Shown here: one piece after another, positions 39,842 to 61,961 of the stretch
Layout: each line of letters starts with the position of its first letter
Position numbering within the stretch: position 1 is the stretch's first letter
Origin: Candidatus Saccharimonadota bacterium
GTDB lineage: Bacteria > Patescibacteriota > Saccharimonadia > Saccharimonadales > DTSZ01
Assembly: GCA_012965045.1 (NCBI GenBank)
Contig: DTSZ01000001.1
Span: 503,763 to 567,762, forward strand
Length of the DNA: 64,000 nucleotides
Direction of reading: 5' to 3'
Translations under genes and position numbers: made by a program
The notes under the pieces: generated by a model
Database searches by the model: none
What the model was told of the DNA's origin: nothing
Seen by the model: the letters and a program-made list of their open reading frames with translations, nothing else

Positions 39842-40690
39842 ATGCATCATACCAATGCAGTTCGCACGAGCTGGCTTAAACTAACCGCCACTGCGACAAC
39901 AGTACTGGCTTTAATGTTATCAATGACAAACTCGGTAGGAGCAACTCATTTAATTAATTATCAGTCAGTGCCGTTTACGCCTGATGAGATTTCTAATAAC
40001 TGGGTAGTTGATCGAGCGACACCATCAGGTGGCCACGGGTCCGTTTCTTATGCTGATCGAGATAATGTAATGGAAATGAATATTGATGTTGAGAACAGAA
40101 GCGAACTTGGTGGATTCTACTTCACTGAGGGTTTGCAGCGCGACCTCGCTGACGAAACATTCGCACTCAGCAACGATCTATTTGTTGAATCCAGCTGGTC
40201 AGAAATTGATGTACGCGCTGGACTATGGGGAGTAGGAAACAATGCCGGTGATGATGTGTCAGCTTACCCAATAACAGAATTTACAACTGCAGGAGAAGGT
40301 GATTTCACTGGTTGGAGAGTATGGGACGGCGTGCTCGGAGGTTGGACAAATCTACCAGAAGTTGAATACAAATCAGATGAATGGAATAGTCTACAAATTA
40401 TATTAAATAATGACACTCTGATGTTTGATCATTACATAAATGGCGAACTAGTTGCTGCAACAACCGCTGGTGACTCTGTTGATTTCGGATCAATAATCCT
40501 AAACAACTTTAACTACGGCTCAGAAGCATCTAACTACAGCGTTCATTGGAGTGAGTTTGCATTTGCTACTGATATATATGAATCACCAGTATCAAAAAAC
40601 GAGTGTAAAAAAGGCGGATACGAAACGTTTGGATTTAGTAACCAAGGTCAATGTATTCAATACGTAAATACTGGTAAAGACAGTCGCTAA
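39842..40690 (+). CDS. Secreted hypothetical protein (jelly-roll/lectin-like, C-terminal CKKGGY...NQGQCIQYV motif)
   Basis: 282 aa with a signal peptide (ATATTVLALMLSMTNSVGA). RBS AAAGGGGGA. Followed by a strong terminator. Confidence 0.65.
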   Translation: MHHTNAVRTSWLKLTATATTVLALMLSMTNSVGATHLINYQSVPFTPDEISNNWVVDRATPSGGHGSVSYADRDNVMEMNIDVENRSELGGFYFTEGLQRDLADETFALSNDLFVESSWSEIDVRAGLWGVGNNAGDDVSAYPITEFTTAGEGDFTGWRVWDGVLGGWTNLPEVEYKSDEWNSLQIILNNDTLMFDHYINGELVAATTAGDSVDFGSIILNNFNYGSEASNYSVHWSEFAFATDIYESPVSKNECKKGGYETFGFSNQGQCIQYVNTGKDSR

Positions 40691-40708
40691 GTCGTCGCGT
40701 AACTCCTT

Positions 40709-40740
40709 AAAAAACCGAGCTAGCTAGAGCTCGGTTTTTT
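40709..40740. terminator. Bidirectional rho-independent terminator
   Basis: AAAAAA-CCGAGCT-AGCTAG-AGCTCGG-TTTTTT. Confidence 0.8.
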
Positions 40741-40889
40741 AATTGGTGACCCTAACCTGCCTGCCGGTAGGAAGGGAAAATATCTAACGATATAATCTGC
40801 GTAACTTTTCGAAGCTAGGAGGTAGCTTCTGTGAGAGCACTTGATTATCTGAACTCTAGAGTTCGTGCTCTCTTCGAGAGCTAACCACG
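40741..40889. other. Structured non-coding region between two terminators (candidate small RNA, strand unresolved)
   Basis: Contains TGGTGACCC (a copy of the tRNA-Glu 3' end), hairpin CCTGCCTGCCGGTAGGAAGG, hairpin GAAGCTA-GGAGG-TAGCTTC, palindrome GAACTCTAGAGTTC, and mutually exclusive pairings GAGAGCAC/GTGCTCTC versus GCTCTC/GAGAGC. Confidence 0.4.
40756..40775 (+). repeat. Hairpin motif copy A (CCTGCCTGCCGGTAGGAAGG+GAAA)
   Basis: 22 of 24 nt identical to 61171-61194 in the same orientation. Confidence 0.7.
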
Positions 40890-40912
40890 AAAAAACCCAC
40901 CGCAAGGGTGGG
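40890..40912 (-). terminator. Terminator of tRNA-Glu
   Basis: On the minus strand: CCCACC-CTTGC-GGTGGG followed by TTTTTT. Confidence 0.75.
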
Positions 40913-40920
40913 CATTTTCG

Positions 40921-40995
40921 TGGTGACCCCAAGGAGGATCGAACTCCTATTTTCAGGATGAAAACCTGATGTCCTAACCATTAGACGATGGGGCC
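40921..40995 (-). tRNA. tRNA-Glu (anticodon UUC), CCA encoded
   Basis: Reverse complement folds as GGCCCCA-TC-GTCT-AATGGTTA-GGAC-A-TCAGG-TTTTCAT-CCTGA-AAAT-AGGAG-TTCGATC-CTCCT-TGGGGTC-ACCA. Hand-folded cloverleaf. Confidence 0.85.
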
Positions 40996-41082
40996 AATTT
41001 ACTCGGGAAATACTATCATTTTCACCTCTGTTTCGCAAGATTAAAAATTTACAAGCCAGCGTTGTCGATTATTATGTAGGTT

Positions 41083-41640
41083 ATGAACAAAAATATAAAA
41101 CTACTACTCACTGCCAACTATTGGCATACATTTGGCTTTACTCTGCTATCGCCTCTGTATGCCGTGTACGTAACACAGCAACTAAACGGCTCGGAATTCG
41201 AAATTGGCCTGTCCTACTCGGTCTATGGATTCTCGGCAGGCATTTTAATGATTATTGCGGGCCGTGTAGAAGATTCAATCTCTAAATACGCCAAACAGAT
41301 TTTAACCTTTGGCTACGTCCTCTTAGCAATTGCTTCATTTGGCTATTTGCTGGTGGATAGCATTTACCAACTTATGTTTTTGCAAATGATATACGCAATG
41401 GCCGTTGCCATATACGTGCCTATGTCAAAAACCTTGTTCTCGAAACTGGAAGACGACGGCAAAGAGTCGTCAGAATGGGCGATCATGGATGGCGGCAACT
41501 TTTTAATTATCGGTTTCTCGTCTTTAATTGGAGGCTACTTATTGGCAAACTATTCCTTTGATGTGATCTTTATCGGCATGGGCATAAGCCAATTATTTGC
41601 AGCCCTATTAGTTTCTCGGGTGGCGCCTTCTAGAATATAA
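41083..41640 (+). CDS. Half-size MFS-like membrane protein (about 6 TM), possibly a truncated remnant
   Basis: 185 aa. Hydrophobic pattern and the loop AGRVEDSISKY resemble one half of an MFS transporter. Confidence 0.5.
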   Translation: MNKNIKLLLTANYWHTFGFTLLSPLYAVYVTQQLNGSEFEIGLSYSVYGFSAGILMIIAGRVEDSISKYAKQILTFGYVLLAIASFGYLLVDSIYQLMFLQMIYAMAVAIYVPMSKTLFSKLEDDGKESSEWAIMDGGNFLIIGFSSLIGGYLLANYSFDVIFIGMGISQLFAALLVSRVAPSRI

Positions 41641-41683
41641 AGTCGAGGCAGTAGCTAATCAGTATATATGTTGTATCTAGCCC

Positions 41684-42280
41684 TTAAGGAGTGAGTGCCT
41701 CGGCATATTCAACAATAGAACGGGCTAAGTCTTGATACGTACGATTTCGTAAATTTCTATCTGTTATATCTGGTGTAGTTATTTGCAGCTCTGCCTGCTC
41801 TAAAACTGCTCCGGTATTTAGGGGTGGCAATGCTCCATTTAATTCCGCATTTCTCAACACCATAAATTTGTCGTAGTCTACTGTATCGCCTAATCGGCCC
41901 CGAAGTTTCATGCGATTAAATTCAGTCTGTGGGTCAGGTGCATGCACCCCAACAATCACACCCCTGTCACTAATAACACCCGCTGTGTCATCAGGATCTC
42001 GTAACCCATCAACTACACAGCCAATTGCATTAGCAGCTCGGGCCTCTTTTATAGCTTGCCTGTAAATAAAATCGCTACCGCGCTCTTGTTTTTGACGTTG
42101 CACAAACTCGCGCATACTATAACGATCTCCTTGATGATGACCGTATTCTTTTAAATACTCCCCTTTTAGCCAAGTACTATCAAAAAGCTGATAGCCATGT
42201 TCAACTTGGATTGCCTTAGATAGTTCAGACTTACCCGAACCGGGCAAACCAACAACTGCAATAATTGGAAACTCGTTCAT
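41684..42280 (-). CDS. P-loop nucleotide/nucleoside kinase-like protein
   Basis: 198 aa. Walker A VVGLPGSGKSE near the N-terminus. Size and layout fit small NMP/dNMP-kinase-like proteins. Confidence 0.6.
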   Translation of the reverse strand: MNEFPIIAVVGLPGSGKSELSKAIQVEHGYQLFDSTWLKGEYLKEYGHHQGDRYSMREFVQRQKQERGSDFIYRQAIKEARAANAIGCVVDGLRDPDDTAGVISDRGVIVGVHAPDPQTEFNRMKLRGRLGDTVDYDKFMVLRNAELNGALPPLNTGAVLEQAELQITTPDITDRNLRNRTYQDLARSIVEYAEALTP

Positions 42281-42321
42281 AATAAATTATATAATATGTC
42301 AATAATCTATTCTGGTCAATT

Positions 42322-42759
42322 TCAAAGTTCGCTTAGAATTTGGCCTTTGGCAATAAATCGAAGAATCTCTTTGAAGTAATCGTAGGTATTATCAGGAAGT
42401 GACTGTTCATTAAACCAACCTATCTGCGTACACTTGTCTGGCTCGGCATTTACTACCTCGCCTTGCCAATTGGTGATTTCATAAAATAAGTCCAGTCGGT
42501 CTTCGTCAGAATCATCTACTAATCTATGCGAGACATGAACAAGGGTGATGTCGTCTTTGTTGACGCTTACACCGACTTCTTCTTGTAACTCGCGAACAAC
42601 GGCATCGCTAAAATGTTCGTCTTTTTCAACATGGCCTGACGGAACAATATATTCGTTGTCTTTATAGCCAGTATTTTGACGCAGCAACATAGGAAATGTA
42701 CCGTCTTCGCGCCGTAAAATCATATACACAGCAGCTATATGTGAGTGTCGTTTTGTCAT
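42322..42759 (-). CDS. Nudix hydrolase
   Basis: 145 aa. SGHVEKDEHFSDAVVRELQEEVGV. Confidence 0.8.
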   Translation of the reverse strand: MTKRHSHIAAVYMILRREDGTFPMLLRQNTGYKDNEYIVPSGHVEKDEHFSDAVVRELQEEVGVSVNKDDITLVHVSHRLVDDSDEDRLDLFYEITNWQGEVVNAEPDKCTQIGWFNEQSLPDNTYDYFKEILRFIAKGQILSEL

Positions 42760-42772
42760 TCTAATCTCGTTT

Positions 42773-42991
42773 CTAACTTAAACTATTTAGTTCTGTGCCT
42801 ATATCACTTGGGCCTAAATTATCTAGACCGTTTTGATGAGAACTGCCTACCTGCTGTCTTCTTTCTCGGCGATTTTGTTGTTCCATGCCCACAGCCGCAC
42901 TAAGCGCTCGTAAATCTCCGTCCGACAAATCTGGCACTGCCTCTATCGCGTCTGAAACCGACAGTATGTTTTTGTTTTGTGGTTCACCCAT
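42773..42991 (-). CDS. Small hypothetical protein
   Basis: 72-aa track ORF on the same strand, 13 nt upstream of the Nudix gene. Confidence 0.4.
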   Translation of the reverse strand: MGEPQNKNILSVSDAIEAVPDLSDGDLRALSAAVGMEQQNRRERRQQVGSSHQNGLDNLGPSDIGTELNSLS

Positions 42992-43245
42992 ATTGCTTGA
43001 ATTGTAGCAAAGCCCACAACCGCATAGCCAGGGTTTTTTTATATATGCCCTGCACCCAAAACAAATAGCTTTTTCCGCAGCTGTTATTCAATTATAATTA
43101 AGCTAAGCAATCATCCTCCGGGCCCTGTGCGCTTTTAAAACAAGCTTTAGTTTGTCTGTTTACGATAGTTCTAGCGGCGGACGGCCACGCTATCTACCAG
43201 CAAGCTCTTTTCTAAAAAATCCGTTCACCTCTACCAATCAATTCC

Positions 43246-43530
43246 TTGGAGCTTGTTTTAATGGATCCGACAATAGTTATTAATGAACGTGTTGATGTGA
43301 TCGCCCTGTACCGTAAGGGCGGTGATATCAGTGCGCTCGCGTTCCCAGCCAAAATGCGCTACAACGGCCAAGATATAGTTTTTACGAAACTCGGCATGCG
43401 CCACCCTACAAGCAAAGGCAAGCGCATGATTCATGTGTTTGACGTGTCAGACGGAGTAAACGACTACCGCCTAGAATTTGATGCCGAAAACCTAACCTGG
43501 ACGCTGGTAGCTATGATCGGGGGTGCATAG
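43246..43530 (+). CDS. Small hypothetical protein upstream of the Y-family polymerase
   Basis: 94 aa with a TTG start. Its stop lies 2 nt before the polymerase start. Confidence 0.5.
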   Translation: MELVLMDPTIVINERVDVIALYRKGGDISALAFPAKMRYNGQDIVFTKLGMRHPTSKGKRMIHVFDVSDGVNDYRLEFDAENLTWTLVAMIGGA

Positions 43531-43532
43531 CT

Positions 43533-44792
43533 ATGACACAACTTGATCTTAATACCGAAAAGCCAGCCGTAATGTGGATTGATTTAAATAGCGCGTTTGC
43601 CAGCGCCGAACAGCAAGCCCATCCGTCACTACGCGGTAAGCCCATGGGCGTGACCAATCGGCTGTCTAAAGAATGTTGCGTAATCGCTGCCTCATACGAA
43701 GCTAAGGCTTTGGGCATAAAAGTTGGTGTGCGTCGCAGTGAAGCGCTGGCTTTGTGTCCTGAATTTATTATGCTCGAAACCGACCCGCCCAAGTACCACA
43801 ACGTCTATAAAAAATTACTTAACATCCTGCTCGATTATTCGCCTCATGTAAAAATGAAAAGTATCGATGAAGGTATTATTGATTTCCATGGCATGGAGAG
43901 CTTCAACAAAGGCCAGTCGCTTCAAGACATTGGCCATGAAATTAAACAGCGTGTGTACCGCGAAATTGGCGACTACACTCGCATAAATGTTGGTATTGCA
44001 CCCAACAGGTTTTTAGCTAAAACTGCCGCTGGTCTACATAAACCAGACGGGCTTGATACCATTGACCACACTAATTTATTAGACGTCTACGGCCAGCTTG
44101 AATTGCAGGACCTAAATGGCATTGCCGACGGTTACGGCAGTCGGCTGCGTGCCTACGGAATCACTACGCCCTTGCAATTTTTAAATGCTCCTCAAAACCT
44201 TCTGCAAAAACGAGTATTTAAAAGTATTAATGGCCTGCACTGGTATCGTCGTCTGCGTGGCTATGAAGTTGACGACTACGACACGAACCTTGGCATGATT
44301 GGCCGGCAATGGGTGGTGGGAAATGTCACAAATAACGAAACGTACCTGCGCTCTTGTTTACATTTCTTAACCGAAACTACCGGCATGAAACTGCGGTTCA
44401 GAAACGTAGAGGCTCGTGGTGTTTGCGTCTGGCTGGCCTTTAATAATGGTGAGAGTTTTTACGACAAAAAAACCTATAAAACCACCTGTTATTCCAACCA
44501 AGACATTTGGCTAAGGGTATTGCGATTATTTGAAAAGCGCCCCACTCATCTTAAGGTGCGCACCATGGGGTTGTATTTGTATAATTTAGAGCCCTCTACG
44601 CGCAGTCAATTGAGCTTGTTCGAAGAGGACGCTAAAAAGGAATTTTTAACCAAAGCCGTCGATGAAATTAATGATTTTTACGGCACGTTCACGGTGTTTT
44701 CAGCCGACACGTTAACTGGTACCAAACATATTAAACAAAAAATACCGTTTGGCGGAACAGAGTATTTTAACTTACTACTAAAACGACAGTAA
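43533..44792 (+). CDS. Y-family DNA polymerase (DinB/UmuC-like)
   Basis: 419 aa. VMWIDLNSAFASAEQQAHPSLRGKPMGV, SIDEGIIDF, IAPNRFLAKTA. Confidence 0.85.
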   Translation: MTQLDLNTEKPAVMWIDLNSAFASAEQQAHPSLRGKPMGVTNRLSKECCVIAASYEAKALGIKVGVRRSEALALCPEFIMLETDPPKYHNVYKKLLNILLDYSPHVKMKSIDEGIIDFHGMESFNKGQSLQDIGHEIKQRVYREIGDYTRINVGIAPNRFLAKTAAGLHKPDGLDTIDHTNLLDVYGQLELQDLNGIADGYGSRLRAYGITTPLQFLNAPQNLLQKRVFKSINGLHWYRRLRGYEVDDYDTNLGMIGRQWVVGNVTNNETYLRSCLHFLTETTGMKLRFRNVEARGVCVWLAFNNGESFYDKKTYKTTCYSNQDIWLRVLRLFEKRPTHLKVRTMGLYLYNLEPSTRSQLSLFEEDAKKEFLTKAVDEINDFYGTFTVFSADTLTGTKHIKQKIPFGGTEYFNLLLKRQ

Positions 44793-57905: not shown

Positions 57906-57982
57906 GCACCCGTAGCTCAGCTGGATAGAGCGCCTGTCTTCGGAACAGGAGGTCATAGGTTCGAATCCTATCGGGTGTACCA
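57906..57982 (+). tRNA. tRNA-Arg (anticodon UCG), CCA encoded
   Basis: GCACCCG-TA-GCTC-AGCTGGATA-GAGC-G-CCTGT-CTTCGGA-ACAGG-AGGTC-ATAGG-TTCGAAT-CCTAT-CGGGTGT-ACCA. Hand-folded, 77 nt. Confidence 0.85.
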
Positions 57983-57990
57983 TATTGCAA

Positions 57991-58016
57991 GTCGTCAATC
58001 GAGACGACTTTTTTTA
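57991..58016 (+). terminator. Terminator of tRNA-Arg
   Basis: GTCGTC-AATCGA-GACGAC followed by TTTTTTT. Confidence 0.7.
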
Positions 58017-58126
58017 ATGGTTATACCTAGATCACACTTAACCCGTCATGGGAGTAAACTAAATAAACTGCAGTTTCAATTTTTTACTACGTTTTTACCC
58101 CGCTTATAATTCACGCTAACTGTAGT

Positions 58127-60514
58127 ATGATTACTACTACCGTGAAGCGATATCTTAATAAACTGGTTAAACTATTAACCGACACCTACCGTGACCCTCG
58201 ATTTATTATTACGAGTTTATTTGCGCTCGTTGGGTTTTTAATAACTACTGCACAGGTTGTAGAAGCTGATGAACTCGATAATTTTGAGAAGTATATATTT
58301 GAACTGATCAACCAACTGGGCGATGGGTTATATTCATTTTTTTATATAATTACTCAGTTTGGCTCATTATTATCACTAGTGGTCTGGGCGGCTGCTATAG
58401 CTTTTTATTTTAGAAAACGAGCAGCGCTAGCCGCTGTTGTATCAGGTTTTTTAGGTTGGCTAATCGCAAAGCCTTTAAAAGCGTATATCGGGCGAGCCAG
58501 ACCAGGCGAAATTCTTGACAGCTTGAATATCTTTACAGATGAAAAATTTAGTGGATTGGGATACCCTTCGGGTCACGCCACCTTATCTGCCGCTGTTGCA
58601 ACAGCAGTTTTTTTGTACCTTAAGCCAAAAAATCGCAAGTACTTGCTTATATTTGTAGCGCTAATCGGCATAAGCCGAGTTTATCTCGGTGGCCACTTCC
58701 CTCGTGACATTATAGGTGGCTGGTTCCTTGGTGTTCTCGCAGGCTGTATTGGTTCATTTTTAATCGGCAGCTCTAGAGACGCTGCCTCTAACAAGTACAT
58801 CAAAAATGTATTAAATAAGAATGGTATAAAGGCTGCAGCAATTAAAGAGTTCAGCGGGGATGCTCGTGGGTCAAGACCTATTTTTATTACACTTGAAGAT
58901 AAAACTAAACTGTTTGGCAAAATAGTAACTAGCCAAGAGCAGGCTGCCGACTGGTTGTTTAAAACGTTTCGTTTTTTTAAATACAAGAACTTCAAAGACG
59001 AGGACCCCTACCTTAACCCAAAACGACACACCGAACATGAAGCGTTCGTAGCAGAATGGGCTCGTAAATTTGGCGTCAACACACCTCAAGTTATTAAGAT
59101 CGTTCATGTCAAAGATAGCCAGTGGTTATTAGTACAAGACATGGTAGACGCTGAGCCACTCGACAAGCAAAAAAAAGTAAGTCAAAAAACTTTAGAGCAA
59201 ACCTGGCGACAAATTTTAAAACTTCATGATGCAGATATTGCTCACCGTGATTTACGAGCAAGCAACGTACTTGTCGATAAAGACAAGCAGCCATGGATTA
59301 TAGACTTTGGTTTTGCAGAAGTGGCTGGTGATGAGATGAGGAAAAGAGTTGATATTGCCGAATTCTTAACAACCACCAGTATGCTATTTGGTGTTAAAAA
59401 ATCTCTTGCTGCTGCTCTGGCAGTTTTAGAGAAACAAAAACTGCAAGAAGCTGCTCCGTATGTTCAGCCGGCAGCTCTCAGTGGAGCCACTACTAGTGCT
59501 ATTAAAAACGACAAGCAAACTTTCGAGCAACTACAAACTGCCTTAAAAGACATGCATGATAATCAGGAAGTTTTTGAACATCAAGCCCTATTACGAATAA
59601 CAAAGAAACAAATTATAAACCTGGCCTTGGTCGCAGTGTTATTCTTCATAATTATTCCTCAATTTAATGTATTTAAAGACTCGTTCGCATCGCTATCTGA
59701 TATAAATTTTATTTACATACCAGCGGTCATAGTAGCTTCCATGACAACATATATCTTTGCAGCAGGCACCATAACTACCATTCCCTCTGTACCTGTTAGC
59801 TACCGCAAGGCAGTTATGGCGCAGTTGGCCGGTTCGTATGCAAGTAAGTTAGCGCCTCGTGGGCTTGGTTCGAGTGCGGTTAATTTACAATTTTTGCGCA
59901 AACAAGGCATGTCGCTGTCGCGTGCTACGTCTGTTATGCTAACCGACAAATTTCTTGGCTTCTTGCTGTTTGTTATTCCGTTTGGTTCGGTTGTAGTAAT
60001 TAGCGGTCAATCATCACTTTCACAGCTACTACCGGATATGAAAACGTACTACGTTTATATAGCGCTGGGGATAATTTTGGCCGGCATTACTGTATTGGTC
60101 GCAAAACGAACCTGGCAAGAAAAAATTATTCAATCGCTAAAAAAGAGCTACTTTGAAATAAAGCAACTTGCCTATAGACCGCGATCGTTGCTGCTTGCTG
60201 CTTTATTTTCTCTCGGGGTAACGGTAAGCTACCTCCTCACTTTATATTTGTGTTTCACAGCATTACAAGTCGACATATCGATACTACAAATAATCGTCAC
60301 GTATGCTGCCGCTACCTTCGCGAGTTCGGTCACACCGACGCCAGGTGGCTTAGGTGGTTTCGAAGCTGGATTAATTGCAGCAATGGTAAGTTTTGGCGTG
60401 GAACAGTCTGCGGCTTACTCGGTGGCTATCCTCTATCGTTTAGCTACCTTTTGGCTACCTATTCCTTTAGCTCTAGCCGCTTTTAAGTTTGCTAGGTCTA
60501 AAGACATTATTTGA
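58127..60514 (+). CDS. Three-domain membrane protein: PAP2 lipid phosphatase, protein/lipid kinase-like domain, flippase-like (LPG_synthase_TM/UPF0104) domain
   Basis: 795 aa. PAP2 motifs KPLKAYIGRARP / PSGH / SRVYLGGHFPRD. Kinase motifs HRDLRASNVLV and IDFGFAE. C-terminal multi-TM region with TPTPGGLGGFEAGLIAAM. Confidence 0.75.
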   Translation: MITTTVKRYLNKLVKLLTDTYRDPRFIITSLFALVGFLITTAQVVEADELDNFEKYIFELINQLGDGLYSFFYIITQFGSLLSLVVWAAAIAFYFRKRAALAAVVSGFLGWLIAKPLKAYIGRARPGEILDSLNIFTDEKFSGLGYPSGHATLSAAVATAVFLYLKPKNRKYLLIFVALIGISRVYLGGHFPRDIIGGWFLGVLAGCIGSFLIGSSRDAASNKYIKNVLNKNGIKAAAIKEFSGDARGSRPIFITLEDKTKLFGKIVTSQEQAADWLFKTFRFFKYKNFKDEDPYLNPKRHTEHEAFVAEWARKFGVNTPQVIKIVHVKDSQWLLVQDMVDAEPLDKQKKVSQKTLEQTWRQILKLHDADIAHRDLRASNVLVDKDKQPWIIDFGFAEVAGDEMRKRVDIAEFLTTTSMLFGVKKSLAAALAVLEKQKLQEAAPYVQPAALSGATTSAIKNDKQTFEQLQTALKDMHDNQEVFEHQALLRITKKQIINLALVAVLFFIIIPQFNVFKDSFASLSDINFIYIPAVIVASMTTYIFAAGTITTIPSVPVSYRKAVMAQLAGSYASKLAPRGLGSSAVNLQFLRKQGMSLSRATSVMLTDKFLGFLLFVIPFGSVVVISGQSSLSQLLPDMKTYYVYIALGIILAGITVLVAKRTWQEKIIQSLKKSYFEIKQLAYRPRSLLLAALFSLGVTVSYLLTLYLCFTALQVDISILQIIVTYAAATFASSVTPTPGGLGGFEAGLIAAMVSFGVEQSAAYSVAILYRLATFWLPIPLALAAFKFARSKDII

Positions 60515-61043
60515 CCTTTTTATAGGTTCTCTTGAGATGTTTCATAATTTTAATCTCAATAAAACTAAAAAATTTGTCAATCCCCGTTACTGGTCCAAAT
60601 TTTTCAACTGCTAAAGTTGTCATGCCTGCCTTGTTAGCTCCGTAAATGTCTTGAATGAATCTGTCGCCTACCATAATGAGTTCCGACGGAGTGTACCCTG
60701 TTTCAGCTTCAGATCGCCGGTAATAGGCGGGGAGAGGTTTTCCTTTAAGTCCTTCGGGCTGCATGGCGCCCTGAGCGCCGAGAGCCTTAACTATTACTGA
60801 CACGTCTTTCGACTTCGGCCTGTTCGTGGCAACGAAAAAAGGCAATGGTTGGTTTTTCAAGGCTTCAAACACCCAGTCTTCAACAGTTTCGGTTCCGTAA
60901 TGAACGACAGTGTGGTCAAGGTCTACTAGAAAGGCTTTGATGCCGGTTGACTGTAAATACGTAAAATCTACCTTCGAAATATTCTCTGCAATGTAATCTG
61001 GGAGTAGATTATTGGATCTCTTGCTGCTGGGTTTTTTGTACAT
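60507..61043 (-). CDS. HAD-IIIA family phosphatase (YqeG-like)
   Basis: 178 aa. FLVDLDHTVV (DxDxT) and MVGDRFIQDIYGANKAGM. Confidence 0.7.
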   Translation of the reverse strand: MYKKPSSKRSNNLLPDYIAENISKVDFTYLQSTGIKAFLVDLDHTVVHYGTETVEDWVFEALKNQPLPFFVATNRPKSKDVSVIVKALGAQGAMQPEGLKGKPLPAYYRRSEAETGYTPSELIMVGDRFIQDIYGANKAGMTTLAVEKFGPVTGIDKFFSFIEIKIMKHLKRTYKKVK

Positions 61044-61095
61044 GTTGTGGGTGGTGACCTTTCGTAACGCATATCTCTTGACTGTATAAATAATA

Positions 61096-61355
61096 TCAGC
61101 TGTATAGAGCGCCTGTCTTGAGCAACTGTTAAGGCCATAGGGGCGAAATGACTAAAAATCACTTCGCAAGCCTGCCTGGCGGTAGGCAGGGAAATTTTCT
61201 TCTAAAAGCTGGTTTTCAATAATGAAATTTAGGGTGAGACGAGCCAGTGGCTCGTTGCAAGGAGACTTTCTTCATCAAATTTTGTTTGATAGAAGGAAAT
61301 CGCGGGCTCGCAGGATGTGAGTGCAGAATGTGACCGAATCCTATCGGGTGTACCA
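61096..61355 (+). pseudogene. Split, 5'-truncated tRNA-Arg-derived sequence carrying a ~190-215 nt structured insert
   Basis: 61096-61119 reads TCAGCTGtATAGAGCGCCTGTCTT (23 of 24 nt match tRNA-Arg positions 12-35). A degenerate anticodon/variable region runs to ATAGG (61137-61141). 61335-61355 reads CGAATCCTATCGGGTGTACCA, identical to 57962-57982. The 5' acceptor strand GCACCCG is absent. Confidence 0.6.
61171..61190 (+). repeat. Hairpin motif copy B (CCTGCCTGGCGGTAGGCAGG+GAAA)
   Basis: Perfect 6-bp stem CCTGCC/GGCAGG with loop TGGCGGTA. 22 of 24 nt match 40756-40779. Confidence 0.7.
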
Positions 61356-61505
61356 CAAAGTTATCATGAGTGAGACGACTTTTTTAATTTGCGATATGAT
61401 TTGATCAGAAACACAAACCACAACGCAATATATACTGACATTTATCCCAAGTAAAAATATATAATCTTGACTTTTAATCCAAAAAACTAGTGCTATTATA
61501 TAAAC

Positions 61506-61961
61506 ATGATAAGAGCCCTAGTCGGTGTTTTCACCGTAATAATTGGTGTAGTAGCGTTATGTGTCTACTTATACCAACCAGCTGGGGTGCCCGCTCAGAT
61601 TGGAATCCTGCAAATCGACGACCAGTATGGATGGGAGAAAATAACCGGCCAAGGCAACCATAGCGAAGTTGGTAAACTGATTCACAGCAAAGCAGTTCTT
61701 GACTATGACTACGGCGAATCCGTTCGGACTGATCCTTCTGGTGATTTTGCATTAATTAGCGAAATACCGGTCGAAGGCGAAAACGGCTATACGGCACGTG
61801 TGTATGAATTTGACGACAATATTGAATTAGTTGTAAACGTTGACAGTGTAGATACTCGACTGGATGTACTGCCCCGGACCCTCTACGCTTTTGGTCATTG
61901 CGAAGACGCACAGTGCAAACAAGCAATTATTACGCTGGCAACCAACTTAAAAGAGATCTAA
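61506..61961 (+). CDS. Membrane-anchored hypothetical protein
   Basis: 151 aa. N-terminal TM ALVGVFTVIIGVVALCVYLY. Confidence 0.5.
   Translation: MIRALVGVFTVIIGVVALCVYLYQPAGVPAQIGILQIDDQYGWEKITGQGNHSEVGKLIHSKAVLDYDYGESVRTDPSGDFALISEIPVEGENGYTARVYEFDDNIELVVNVDSVDTRLDVLPRTLYAFGHCEDAQCKQAIITLATNLKEI

What the first reader, a model, noticed from the sequence alone, without database searches (positions are those of the whole stretch)
61044..61505. Split tRNA-Arg copy interrupted by a highly structured insert that shares a hairpin motif with the tRNA-Glu-adjacent region
The 462-bp gap holds the following, in order:
- a TTGACT box at 61068-61073
- the D-arm to anticodon-loop part of tRNA-Arg (61096-61119, one mismatch; the 5' acceptor strand is missing)
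- a degenerate anticodon/variable region up to the T-stem strand ATAGG (61137-61141)
- ~190 nt of foreign sequence
- the rest of the T-loop, T-stem and acceptor-CCA in perfect form

The insert sits where the two T residues of the T-loop should be. It folds on paper into at least five hairpins:
- GCGAA...TTCGC
- CCTGCC-TGGCGGTA-GGCAGG
- ACGAGCC-AGT-GGCTCGT
- CTTCATCAAA-TTTT-GTTTGATAGAAG
- GCG-GGCT-CGC

The second hairpin plus its GAAA tail matches 22 of 24 nt at 40756-40779, next to the tRNA-Glu 3'-end copy. Two tRNA-end-associated structured segments sharing a motif suggest a family of small tRNA-targeting non-coding elements, a tRNA-derived regulatory RNA, or a shared palindromic operator. 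I could not match the sequence to group I intron, RNase P, tmRNA or SRP signatures by eye.
Basis: seen in the sequence. Interest (0 to 1): 0.6.

Follow-up and report, generated by a model that had tools for sequence, protein, structure and literature searches.

The report
Broken tRNA-Arg copy with hairpin repeat
The gap holds a dead, split copy of the tRNA-Arg gene closed around a 187-base hairpin-rich filler, built like the tRNA-linked RtT repeats of E. coli, and the hairpin it shares with the tRNA-Glu flank is a 20-base palindrome found from Patescibacteria to Bacteroidota, even in frame inside essential genes.

Summary
61096-61147 copies tRNA-Arg(TCG) positions 12-60. 61335-61355 copies its last 21 bases exactly. 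A 187-nt hairpin-rich segment (61148-61334) splits the T-loop. No tool calls a tRNA, tmRNA, intron or any Rfam family there.

The unit folds with the two T-stem halves as a closing helix and ends in the tRNA 3' tail. E. coli RtT/RttR repeats (RF00391) have this build, and so do 9 units I found beside tRNA genes in other Patescibacteria. One MAG carries the same module on tRNA-Val and tRNA-Asn ends, and the window insert shares part of that module. The tRNA-Glu flank (40743-40888) is a weaker second unit.

The shared hairpin is not specific to tRNA ends. CCTGCCTGCCGGTAGGCAGG occurs in more than 120 loci across many phyla and in 12 viral contigs, mostly in unique contexts. These include a group II intron domain V loop and 21-nt in-frame insertions (peptide LPAGRQG) in Lon, DnaE, L6, SHMT and other genes.

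Best reading: non-coding tRNA-linked repeat units that also carry a selfish mini-palindrome. Transcription and function are untested. No close relatives exist for comparison. I found no description of the hairpin in the literature searched.

The parts
57906..57982 (+). Intact tRNA-Arg(TCG), the source of the copied pieces. Its terminator hairpin and T-run follow at about 57991-58016.
   Evidence: ARAGORN; Rfam RF00005, 70.8 bits; sequence read.
61096..61147 (+). Direct, decayed copy of tRNA-Arg positions 12-60 (D-stem, anticodon arm, T-stem 5' strand ATAGG, T-loop GGCGAA). The acceptor 5' strand is missing.
   Evidence: 23/24 over 61096-61119; local alignment score 46, 0/2000 shuffles.
61148..61334 (+). 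187-nt non-coding insert that splits the T-loop. It has several hairpins and no terminal inverted repeats. CGAA lies on both sides of it.
   Evidence: The insert alone has z = -3.8 against 300 mononucleotide shuffles. No match in phage or plasmid collections. No Rfam match at E<=10.
61171..61194 (+). Copy of the 20-nt mini-palindrome (CCTGCCTGGCGGTAGGCAGG, one change in the loop) plus GAAA.
   Evidence: family defined.
61225..61239 (+). AAATTTAGGGTGAGA, 34 nt after the palindrome. It matches AAATTTTAGGGGAGGA, which lies 30 nt after the palindrome in the tRNA-Val- and tRNA-Asn-linked module of L021, L043 and L117.
   Evidence: With the mismatches allowed, only two off-register chance matches occurred in about 24 kb searched.
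61335..61355 (+). Exact copy of the tRNA-Arg 3' part, from T-loop C56 through the T-stem 3' strand, acceptor 3' strand and ACCA.
   Evidence: 21/21. In the unconstrained MFE it pairs with 61135-61142 as the closing helix.
61372..61385 (+). Copy of the 3' half of the tRNA-Arg terminator (GAGACGACTTTTTT). The 5' half of the stem is lost.
   Evidence: 14/14.
40743..40888 (-). Second, weaker tRNA-linked unit downstream of tRNA-Glu. It has hairpins, the palindrome in the opposite orientation to the tRNA, and ends in TTAGGGTCACCA. It lies between two terminator hairpins.
   Evidence: z = -2.56, 2/200 shuffles, 5' end pairs with the ...GGGTCACCA tail; direct copy 11/12, p about 0.01; inverted copy not significant, p 0.12-0.18.
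40756..40779 (+). Copy of the mini-palindrome (CCTGCCTGCCGGTAGGAAGG, one change that breaks a stem pair) plus GAAA.
40921..40995 (-). Intact tRNA-Glu(TTC).
61090..61119 (-). Promoter-like site (AAGACA, 18 nt, TATTAT, with TG) facing the HAD phosphatase gene (60507-61043). It overlaps the pseudo-tRNA 5' piece.
   Evidence: This is a consensus match only.
61467..61497 (+). TTGACT and TGcTATTAT promoter-like boxes directly before the ATG at 61506. The insert therefore lies upstream of this gene's promoter, not in its leader.
   Evidence: Read from the sequence. The scan did not list it.

Best explanation
The gap is a non-coding 'tRNA-linked repeat unit'. It is a dead partial duplicate of the tRNA-Arg gene whose T-loop is split by 187 bp of hairpin-rich DNA.

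The two T-stem halves can still pair. As a single strand, the unit would therefore fold into a closed bundle of hairpins that ends in the tRNA's own 3' tail (...GGGTGTACCA). E. coli RtT/RttR repeats behind tyrT/tyrV have this build, and so do units I found behind tRNA genes in other Patescibacteria. The segment behind tRNA-Glu is a second, more decayed unit.

Shown: the junction with the tRNA copy lies in the T-loop, as it does in nearly all other units.

Inferred:
- The units arise by DNA-level duplication or recombination at the T-loop of tRNA genes.
- If transcribed, they would be trimmed by tRNA-processing enzymes, because they mimic the acceptor/T-arm end.

The hairpin shared by the two window units is a separate thing. 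It is one copy each of a 20-nt GC-rich palindrome (consensus CCTGCCTGCCGGTAGGCAGG) that behaves like a tiny selfish insertion. It lands as exactly 20 nt in the D-loops of spare tRNA copies (before GAA). It also lies in loops of other hairpins and in surface loops of proteins, where only 21-nt in-frame versions survive. It accumulates in dispensable DNA such as these units. What moves it is unknown. My guess is a hairpin-recognising enzyme acting in trans.
For: Anatomy and fold of the window units.

Same build elsewhere:
- 8 of 10 loci (9 from the motif scan plus the window's tRNA-Glu) with a direct 3' tRNA copy 90-200 nt downstream also carry, in between, an inverted copy of the T-loop/T-stem 3' strand (p <= 0.03 each). 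The direct copy starts at tRNA position 54-58.
- The Saccharibacteria relative L125 shows the same arrangement.
- L021 and L117 come from one MAG and carry the same roughly 150-nt module on tRNA-Val and tRNA-Asn ends.
- The window insert shares [palindrome]-GAAA-about 30 nt-AAATTTAGGG.GAG with that module at the same offset.
- E. coli tyrT/tyrV units show the inverted T-arm copy plus a 19-nt direct 3' copy. The Rfam RtT consensus has exactly this closing helix.

Palindrome:
- More than 120 loci in many phyla, plus 12 viral contigs.
- 86 of 151 copies have unique flanks.
- Filled versus empty sites in L026, L061 and L097 show an exact 20-nt insertion at A^GAA.
- One copy lies in a group II intron domain V loop.
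- 18 of 22 clear coding cases are on the same strand and in the same frame.
- SHMT carries a 21-nt insertion relative to an 87%-identical empty homologue.
- The host ORFs are real genes.
Against: - No relatives closer than about 40% protein identity carry the locus, so conservation of the window units cannot be tested.
- The Arg unit is atypical. Its left arm is a direct copy of the tRNA 5' part rather than an inverted copy, and it lies 3.3 kb from the intact tRNA with two vertically inherited genes in between.
- The Glu unit's tRNA copy is only 12 nt and its inverted arm is not significant.
- RF00391 does not match any of these units. The likeness to RtT is architectural only.
- Similarity of the insert to the L117 module outside the palindrome is short, at 15-16 nt.
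- No mobilising enzyme was identified for the palindrome.
- The motif search required exact matches, so conservation and flank statistics are biased.
Confidence: 0.55

Rival explanations
1. Plain decaying tRNA-Arg pseudogene. A duplicated tRNA gene was hit by one or more random insertions, and the rest is filler with no family relationship. The hairpins are incidental.
For: - No acceptor stem, a degenerate anticodon arm, and no tRNA call.
- The sequence is identical in all four available contigs and absent in distant relatives.
- Variant palindrome copies elsewhere show broken stem pairs, as expected for neutral decay.
Against: - Identity is mosaic (23/24, 21/21 and 14/14 blocks separated by unrelated sequence) rather than uniformly decayed.
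- The insert is more structured than shuffles.
- The break lies in the T-loop, as in 8 of the 10 loci measured, although it starts at position 56 rather than 57 as in the units read by eye.
- The module is shared with L021, L043 and L117 at matching offset.
Confidence: 0.2
2. Attachment-site scar or miniature integrative element. A tyrosine-recombinase element that crosses over in the T-loop integrated at tRNA-Arg and tRNA-Glu. The perfect 3' copies are attR, the structured DNA is the arm region (possibly an attC-like folded site), and the integrase acts in trans or is lost.
For: - The direct repeat runs exactly from the T-loop to the 3' end, and each copy is followed by its own terminator or a remnant of one.
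- The same module is joined to two different tRNA ends in one MAG.
- From established knowledge, not tested here: T-loop crossover is a classic sublocation for tRNA-targeting integrases.
Against: - No integrase or other mobile-element gene lies between or beside the repeats.
- The two genes between tRNA-Arg and the copy (the 795-aa PAP2-kinase-LPG-synthase fusion and the HAD phosphatase) form a pair that is kept in the distant relative L130 and are therefore not cargo.
- In a normal attR the inverted core site abuts the crossover. Here 60-190 nt intervene.
- The E. coli RtT repeats with the same build are usually read as tandem duplications.
Confidence: 0.15
3. Functional small RNA or tRNA mimic. 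The unit is transcribed and processed like a tRNA at its acceptor/T-arm-like end. It then acts as a regulator or decoy, as was proposed for E. coli rtT RNA in amino-acid starvation.
For: - Closed multi-hairpin fold with a 3' NCCA tail.
- The architecture recurs across distant lineages and in the Rfam RtT consensus.
- Hairpin positions are kept while their sequences differ between L006, L097 and L029.
Against: - There is no convincing + strand promoter for the Arg unit.
- The Glu unit lies between two terminators.
- The left arms are true reverse complements of the tRNA 3' strand (A opposite U70 in the tRNA-Ala unit of L012). This points to DNA-level copying rather than selection on an RNA.
- No covariation data exist for the window units.
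Confidence: 0.1
4. Shared palindromic operator. The CCTGCC...GGCAGG hairpin is a binding site for one regulator that controls the neighbouring genes.
For: It is a near-perfect inverted repeat, and it occurs twice in intergenic DNA of the window.
Against: - The same 20-mer lies inside coding regions of unrelated housekeeping genes, in an intron ribozyme loop, in terminator loops and in viral contigs of 33-70% GC, across phyla.
- No common neighbouring gene was seen.
Confidence: 0.02

Closest known systems
RtT RNA / RttR, the 178-bp repeats of the E. coli tyrT-tyrV operon (Rfam RF00391)
   Same: - It is a non-coding unit of about 130-180 nt attached to a tRNA gene.
- It ends in an exact copy of the tRNA's last roughly 19 nt, starting in the T-loop and including CCA.
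- An upstream inverted copy of the T-stem/acceptor pairs with that copy as a closing helix around internal hairpins.

I verified this in E. coli K-12. The same build appears in 9 Patescibacteria units and in the predicted folds of both window units.
   Different: - There is no sequence similarity, and RF00391 gives no match at E<=5-10.
- The Arg unit keeps a direct copy of tRNA positions 12-60 instead of an inverted arm, and it is not adjacent to its tRNA.
- Terminators separate the tRNA from the unit, whereas the E. coli units are co-transcribed (the latter from my own knowledge).
- Processing and function are untested here.
attL/attR duplications made by tRNA-targeting tyrosine integrases (T-loop sublocation)
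   Same: A direct repeat of the tRNA 3' part that begins in the T-loop, with the intact tRNA on one side and the partial copy on the other.
   Different: - No integrase and no foreign cargo. The intervening genes are vertically inherited.
- The distance is only 110-270 bp in most units.
- An extra inverted arm and hairpins lie between the core half-sites.
REP/BIME elements (including the GTAG- and CGTC-tagged superfamilies, PMC3733652)
   Same: A short (20 nt) GC-rich imperfect palindrome in many copies, mostly intergenic, often inside or beside other hairpins and terminators. Some copies occur in inverted pairs (L107).
   Different: - The same sequence is shared across phyla and in viral contigs rather than being species-specific.
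- No terminal GTAG or CGTC tag lies outside the stem.
- It occurs frequently in frame inside genes.
- No RAYT-type gene was examined or found.
Rickettsia palindromic elements (RPE), yeast mitochondrial GC clusters and byp elements
   Same: Selfish palindromic DNA that inserts into protein-coding genes without destroying them and is read through as a short tolerated peptide. These are GC-rich hairpins in AT-rich genomes.
   Different: - RPEs are about 100-150 bp. This element is 20-21 nt (7 codons).
- The host range is far wider.
- This comparison rests on my own knowledge of those families, not on a test here.
Archaeal split or intron-containing tRNA genes (model of disruption by integrating elements, PMC3293823)
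   Same: A tRNA gene interrupted at a loop by foreign DNA.
   Different: - This is a bacterial genome, and there is no bulge-helix-bulge motif.
- The 5' acceptor strand is absent and the anticodon arm is degenerate.
- An intact tRNA-Arg(TCG) exists 3.3 kb away, so no splicing or trans-joining is needed or possible.

Membership tests
Functional tRNA gene (including intron-containing) | A cloverleaf with a 7-bp acceptor stem, detectable by ARAGORN or the Rfam tRNA model. | tested here: not met
   There was no call in default, intron or tmRNA modes. At 70-80% thresholds only spurious calls appeared in the AT-rich stretch at 61360-61557. No RF00005 match at E<=10. The acceptor 5' strand is absent from the sequence.
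Group I intron, group II intron, RNase P, tmRNA, SRP, 6S and other Rfam families | A match to the family covariance model. | tested here: not met
   Whole window at gathering score: only the two tRNAs. 60900-61600 at E<=10: two chance-level hits elsewhere in the gap. 40600-43600 at E<=1: nothing relevant.
RtT (RF00391) tRNA-linked repeat | The unit ends in a copy of the 3'-terminal ~19 nt of a tRNA, beginning in the T-loop. | tested here: met
   Arg unit: 21/21, from C56 to CCA. Glu unit: only 12 nt, 11/12, starting at position 64.
RtT (RF00391) tRNA-linked repeat | A closing helix forms between an upstream complementary segment and the tRNA 3' copy, enclosing hairpins. | tested here: met
   The unconstrained MFE pairs 61135-61142 with 61339-61347. 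The Glu unit pairs its 5' UGGU..GCUCU with AGGGU..ACCA. The Rfam RtT consensus is shown.
RtT (RF00391) tRNA-linked repeat | The unit lies directly downstream of its tRNA in the same operon. | tested here: inconclusive
   Glu unit: yes, but a terminator hairpin lies between the tRNA and the unit. Arg unit: no; the intact tRNA is 3.3 kb upstream.
RtT (RF00391) tRNA-linked repeat | Sequence and structure match to the RF00391 model. | tested here: not met
   The model finds four copies in the E. coli control.
RtT (RF00391) tRNA-linked repeat | A discrete processed RNA product. | not testable with these tools
   No expression data are available.
Integrated element at a tRNA gene (att sites) | A direct repeat of the tRNA 3' part flanking foreign DNA that encodes or once encoded an integrase. 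| tested here: not met
   The repeat is present. However, the flanked genes are a conserved pair also found together in L130, and no integrase is among the called genes.
MITE / transposon insertion (the 187-nt insert) | Terminal inverted repeats plus a target-site duplication. | tested here: inconclusive
   CGAA lies on both sides, but no inverted repeat joins the insert ends (and inspection).
REP-type palindromic repeat (the 20-nt hairpin) | A short imperfect palindrome, in many copies per genome, mostly extragenic. | tested here: met
   It has an 8-bp stem including one G.T pair and a 4-nt loop. Several copies occur per MAG (for example Bacteroidales metabat2.99, Omnitrophica RIFOXYB12, ELA570). 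Most copies are intergenic. The copy number in the window's own genome is known only for 64 kb: two copies.
REP-type palindromic repeat (the 20-nt hairpin) | A conserved GTAG or CGTC tag at one end, and association with a RAYT transposase. | not tested
   No conserved flank was seen beyond R at -1 (G 63%, A 33%). GTAG lies inside the stem. RAYT genes were not searched.

The most novel reading that the evidence does not exclude
CCTGCCTGCCGGTAGGCAGG is the signature of an undescribed, trans-mobilised hairpin element of only 20-21 nt, among the smallest mobile DNAs known. On this reading:
- It has spread across bacterial phyla, a bin labelled Nanoarchaeia, and viral contigs.
- It inserts before GAA in single-stranded loops: tRNA-like D-loops, ribozyme tetraloops and terminator loops.
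- It survives in essential proteins as the peptide LPAGRQG.
- RtT-like tRNA-linked units, here found in Patescibacteria for the first time, are among its landing pads.
Probability: 0.3. Interest if true: 0.8.

Novelty: new variant of a known kind. Interest (0 to 1): 0.58.

Why it matters
For this window it settles the annotation. There is no hidden tRNA, intron or known RNA gene in the gap, and the shared motif is a dispersed repeat rather than a regulatory link between two tRNA loci.

Two leads beyond the window are worth a specialist's time.

First, units built like E. coli RtT repeats sit behind about a fifth of the tRNA genes sampled in ultra-small Patescibacteria genomes. Either they are continually regenerated by a T-loop-specific process, or they are useful. 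RtT itself has never been explained.

Second, an identical 20-nt palindrome is shared by organisms as far apart as Saccharibacteria, Omnitrophota, Bacteroidota, Scalindua and a Nanoarchaeia-labelled bin. It is inserted in frame into Lon, DnaE, ribosomal protein L6, SHMT and release factor genes. This points to a very small, very promiscuous selfish element with an unknown mobilising machinery. It is also a practical source of 7-residue indels in protein alignments of these lineages.

Tried and rejected
Known RNA families. Rfam at gathering score and at permissive E-values, and ARAGORN in default, intron, tmRNA and lowered-threshold modes, found nothing in either unit.

Comparative genomics of the gap.
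- The flanking HAD protein has only a 72% relative on a 1-kb contig and a 36% relative without synteny.
- The four contigs that carry the locus are 100% identical.
- The 795-aa protein's nearest relatives are 37-41% identical. Only L130 keeps the gene pair, and it has no tRNA or insert.

Genomic-island reading of 57983-61334. Rejected, because the two genes are a conserved vertical pair and no integrase is present.

Public DNA collections.
- The insert has no blastn match in the phage or plasmid collections.

Literature. Exact-sequence and peptide searches, plus three keyword searches and one failed call, found no description of the hairpin or of tRNA remnants in Patescibacteria. The old rtT papers are not in the library.

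Search for an autonomous partner. ORFs between paired palindrome copies in L038, L116, L136 and L137 are ordinary genes.

GAAA as part of the element. Rejected as obligatory, because additional copies and all viral copies lack it.

Specific association of the palindrome with tRNA genes. Only 8 of 149 copies lie within 130 nt of a tRNA. That is a modest enrichment, explicable by shared preference for intergenic DNA.

An inverted tRNA-Arg arm in the gap. None found.
Full report
**1. What is there**

The window is about 43% GC. The genes I read in 36-64 kb include housekeeping ones such as pgk, pyk, ddl, murF and folD.

The same sequence lies on a 929,678-bp scaffold from a hydrothermal-plume metagenome. 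One source labels its proteins Candidatus Saccharibacteria.

ARAGORN and Rfam find two tRNA genes: tRNA-Glu(TTC) at 40921-40995 (-) and tRNA-Arg(TCG) at 57906-57982 (+).

- 61096-61119 matches the tRNA-Arg D-arm and anticodon 5' part at 23/24.
- 61335-61355 matches its last 21 bases exactly.
- 61372-61385 repeats the tail of its terminator at 14/14.

A local alignment shows that the 5' piece is a direct, decayed copy of tRNA positions 12-60, running through ATAGG (61137-61141) to GGCGAA (score 46; 0 of 2000 shuffles reach it). CGAA of the T-loop therefore flanks a 187-nt insert (61148-61334).

Three of the five hairpins are in the minimum-energy fold, the other two stretches pair differently there, and the unit folds better than shuffles (z = -2.94, 0/200).

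**2. What it is not**

- No tRNA, tmRNA or intron-containing tRNA is called, even with relaxed settings.
- No Rfam family matches at E<=10.
- The acceptor 5' strand does not exist, so this cannot be a working or spliceable tRNA.
- The insert matches nothing in the phage or plasmid collections.
- The promoter-like boxes for the 151-aa gene lie between the insert and its ATG, so the insert is not that gene's leader.
- A promoter-like site for the HAD gene overlaps the pseudo-tRNA 5' piece on the other strand.

**3. No close relatives**

All four contigs that carry the locus are identical.

The next relatives share 36-41% protein identity. One of them (L130) keeps the 795-aa PAP2-kinase-LPG-synthase gene and the HAD gene as an overlapping convergent pair, but has no tRNA or insert nearby.

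Two things follow. The 3.3 kb between tRNA-Arg and its partial copy is not island cargo. And conservation of the gap cannot be tested.

**4. The shared hairpin is a dispersed mini-palindrome**

*Distribution.* The 24-mer occurs exactly twice in the window, with 0 expected. The record titles name Patescibacteria of many classes, Omnitrophota, Bacteroidota, Bdellovibrionales, delta-proteobacteria, Scalindua, Nitrospirota, a Nanoarchaeia bin and one Phyllobacterium isolate. The 20-nt core alone occurs in 12 IMG/VR contigs of 33-70% GC.

*The core is the repeated unit.* After masking the core, 86 of 151 instances share no flanking similarity with any other instance. The core forms an 8-bp stem (one G.T pair) with an NCGG loop. 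The single changes seen at position 8 or 13 turn the wobble pair into a Watson-Crick pair, while other variants break pairs. The base before the core is G (63%) or A (33%). GAAA after it is common but not obligatory.

*Contexts.* They include the tetraloop position of a group II intron domain V (the Rfam RF00029 match spans it), loops of terminator-like and MITE-like hairpins, and coding regions.

*Filled and empty sites.* In three loci, a spare 5' copy of a tRNA carries exactly the 20-nt core between A and GAA of its D-loop. The real tRNA 70-100 nt downstream is uninterrupted (L026, L061, L097).

*Coding cases.* In 18 of 22 clear cases the core is on the sense strand in one frame, giving LPAGRQG. 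Pfam confirms that the hosts are real genes: Lon, the DnaE HHH domain, a class-V aminotransferase, ribosomal protein L6, the TopA zinc ribbon, a pseudouridine synthase, a release factor and a T9SS-sorted protein. Adenylate kinase carries it in the other open frame.

*The SHMT test.* I compared the carrier with its homologues:
- Relative to an 87%-identical empty homologue, the insertion is 21 nt, between GGG and GGA-AAG.
- A 77%-identical homologue has the perfect-palindrome variant at the same site.
- Another homologue has a different hairpin (CCCCGCC-AAA-GGCGGGG).
- Others have unrelated 7- or 11-residue inserts there.

*Literature.* Exact-sequence, peptide and keyword searches found no description.

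**5. The tRNA-derived unit belongs to a recurring architecture**

*In the loci brought in by the motif scan.* 8 of 45 tRNA genes have an exact copy of their 3' part 90-200 nt downstream. I measured ten loci: nine from that scan plus the window's own tRNA-Glu. The copy starts at tRNA position 54-58, that is, in the T-loop, in eight of the ten. Eight of the ten also have, in between, an inverted copy of the T-loop/T-stem 3' strand, sometimes extending into the acceptor strand (p <= 0.03 each). A Saccharibacteria relative shows the same arrangement behind tRNA-Arg(CCT).

*Predicted structure.* The inverted and direct copies pair, closing two or more hairpins.

*Evidence for spread within a genome.* L021 and L117 come from one MAG and carry the same roughly 150-nt module, including the mini-palindrome, joined to tRNA-Val and tRNA-Asn ends. 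L043 has the module without a nearby tRNA.

*Link to the window.* The window insert shares [palindrome]-GAAA-about 30 nt-AAATTTAGGG.GAG with this module, at offset 34 versus 30. Only two off-register chance matches occurred in about 24 kb.

*The E. coli parallel.* The same build exists behind tyrT and tyrV: an inverted T-arm copy, hairpins, and the 19-nt 3' copy AATCCTTCCCCCACCACCA. This is Rfam RtT (RF00391), whose consensus structure is exactly that closing helix. RF00391 does not match the Patescibacteria or window units, so the likeness is architectural only.

*The two window units.* Both fold in this way:
- Arg unit: 61135-61142 pairs with 61339-61347.
- Glu unit (40743-40888, minus strand): the 5' end pairs with AGGGU..ACCA (z = -2.56).

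The Glu unit is weak. Its tRNA copy is 11/12 (p about 0.01) and its inverted arm is not significant.

The Arg unit is atypical. Its left arm is a direct tRNA copy, and it is not next to its tRNA.

**6. How it most likely works**

Shown:
- The tRNA-derived arms, the T-loop junction and the predicted closed fold.
- Recurrence beside tRNA genes in other genomes, and the same module on two tRNA ends in one genome.
- The palindrome's exact 20-nt (non-coding) and 21-nt (coding) insertions.

Inferred:
- The units arise by DNA-level duplication or recombination at the T-loop.
- The left arms are true reverse complements of the tRNA 3' strand. For example, A lies opposite U70 in the tRNA-Ala unit of L012. 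This points to DNA copying rather than duplication of the tRNA 5' strand.
- If transcribed, the acceptor/T-arm-like end would be handled by tRNA-processing enzymes, as is assumed for rtT RNA (my own knowledge).
- The palindrome is a selfish insertion moved in trans by an unknown hairpin-recognising activity. It accumulates in dispensable DNA and in tolerant protein loops.

I put 0.55 on this combined reading.

**7. Rivals**

| Reading | Confidence | Main point against |
|---|---|---|
| Isolated decaying pseudogene with random filler | 0.2 | Mosaic identity, excess structure and the shared module |
| att scar or miniature integrative element | 0.15 | Fits the T-loop repeat, but no integrase and the genes between are vertically inherited |
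| Functional RtT-like small RNA or tRNA mimic | 0.1 | Open; promoter and terminator layout do not favour it |
| Shared palindromic operator | 0.02 | Contradicted by the motif's distribution |

**8. Limits**

- Taxon labels are those of the MAG records.
- Both metagenome scans returned nothing, so the family could not be enlarged.
- No expression data exist.

Noticed in passing
L006 128-255; L012 1026-1213; L021 2880-3051; L026 4655-4844; L029 2058-2211; L097 1236-1363; L117 1129-1339; L125 9841-9997: Behind many Patescibacteria tRNA genes lies a 110-210-nt unit. It runs: terminator, inverted copy of the T-loop/T-stem 3' strand (sometimes with the acceptor), GAAAGG, hairpins, then a direct copy of the tRNA 3' part starting in the T-loop. 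This is the same build as E. coli RtT, but RF00391 does not match.
   Followed up: yes
L026 5616-5663, L061 5766-5820, L097 2822-2870: Partial 5' copies of tRNA-Met and tRNA-Ile lie 70-100 nt upstream of the real genes, apparently inside the tRNA leader. Each carries the 20-nt palindrome exactly between A and GAA of the D-loop.
   Followed up: partly
L039 1199-1225; L143, L144, L145 (SHMT genes): The PG|GK loop of Patescibacteria SHMT is a hot spot. Different homologues carry the palindrome, its perfect-palindrome variant, a different GC hairpin (CCCCGCC-AAA-GGCGGGG), or unrelated 7- or 11-residue inserts. Most have none.
   Followed up: partly
L002 1440-1590, L042, L068, L098, L102, L110: Six loci from different Patescibacteria- and Bdellovibrionales-labelled bins share a conserved context around the palindrome: GGTATT..ACC..TTTTACCGGCACTGCG.CTCG[core]GAAA-hairpin-TTTCGCTCGCTTCGTTTGGTAATAAA. 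This could be a larger repeat or an undescribed RNA. In L002 it lies between metal-binding and copper-ATPase-like genes.
   Followed up: no
L004, L014, L023, L040, L074, L099: MITE-like elements of about 120 nt with terminal inverted repeats TGTCATTTCGAC.../...GTCGAGATGACA carry the palindrome near their left end. The repeats are nested.
   Followed up: no
L038 625-1998 (-): The pyruvate:ferredoxin oxidoreductase alpha gene of a Nanoarchaeia-labelled bin contains another GC-rich insert (peptide ...GPSRQGSACLAADSSRRAEAGEAD...). It is flanked on both sides by identical repeats that carry the palindrome.
   Followed up: no
L125 9815-9840 and 9880-9902: The T-stem 3' strand plus the start of the acceptor strand of tRNA-Arg(CCT) reads CCTGCCTG, the left arm of the mini-palindrome. 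Its inverted copy downstream reads CAGGCAGG. This may be coincidence or a hint at the palindrome's origin.
   Followed up: no
window 58127-61043: A 795-aa fusion protein (PAP2 phosphatase, protein-kinase-like domain, LPG-synthase transmembrane domain) overlaps convergently by 8 bases with a HAD phosphatase gene. The pair is conserved in the 37%-identical relative L130, and the fusion also occurs in Actinomycetota.
   Followed up: partly
window 61261 and 61420 (ends of contigs L123 and L124): Two independent assemblies of the same organism break inside the gap, one at the ACGAGCC hairpin region. This suggests that repeats or hairpins there hinder assembly.
   Followed up: no
window 40707-40742: A 15-bp-stem hairpin flanked by A- and T-runs (TTAAAAAACCGAGCT-AGCTAG-AGCTCGGTTTTTTAA) looks like a bidirectional terminator. 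It closes both the 39842-40690 gene and the tRNA-Glu-side unit.
   Followed up: no
window 42760-43532: A 770-bp stretch without ORFs of 100 aa or more, upstream of a Y-family polymerase-like gene. It holds small ORFs (for example 43263-43532, 89 aa) and a GC hairpin at 43300-43323. No Rfam match.
   Followed up: partly
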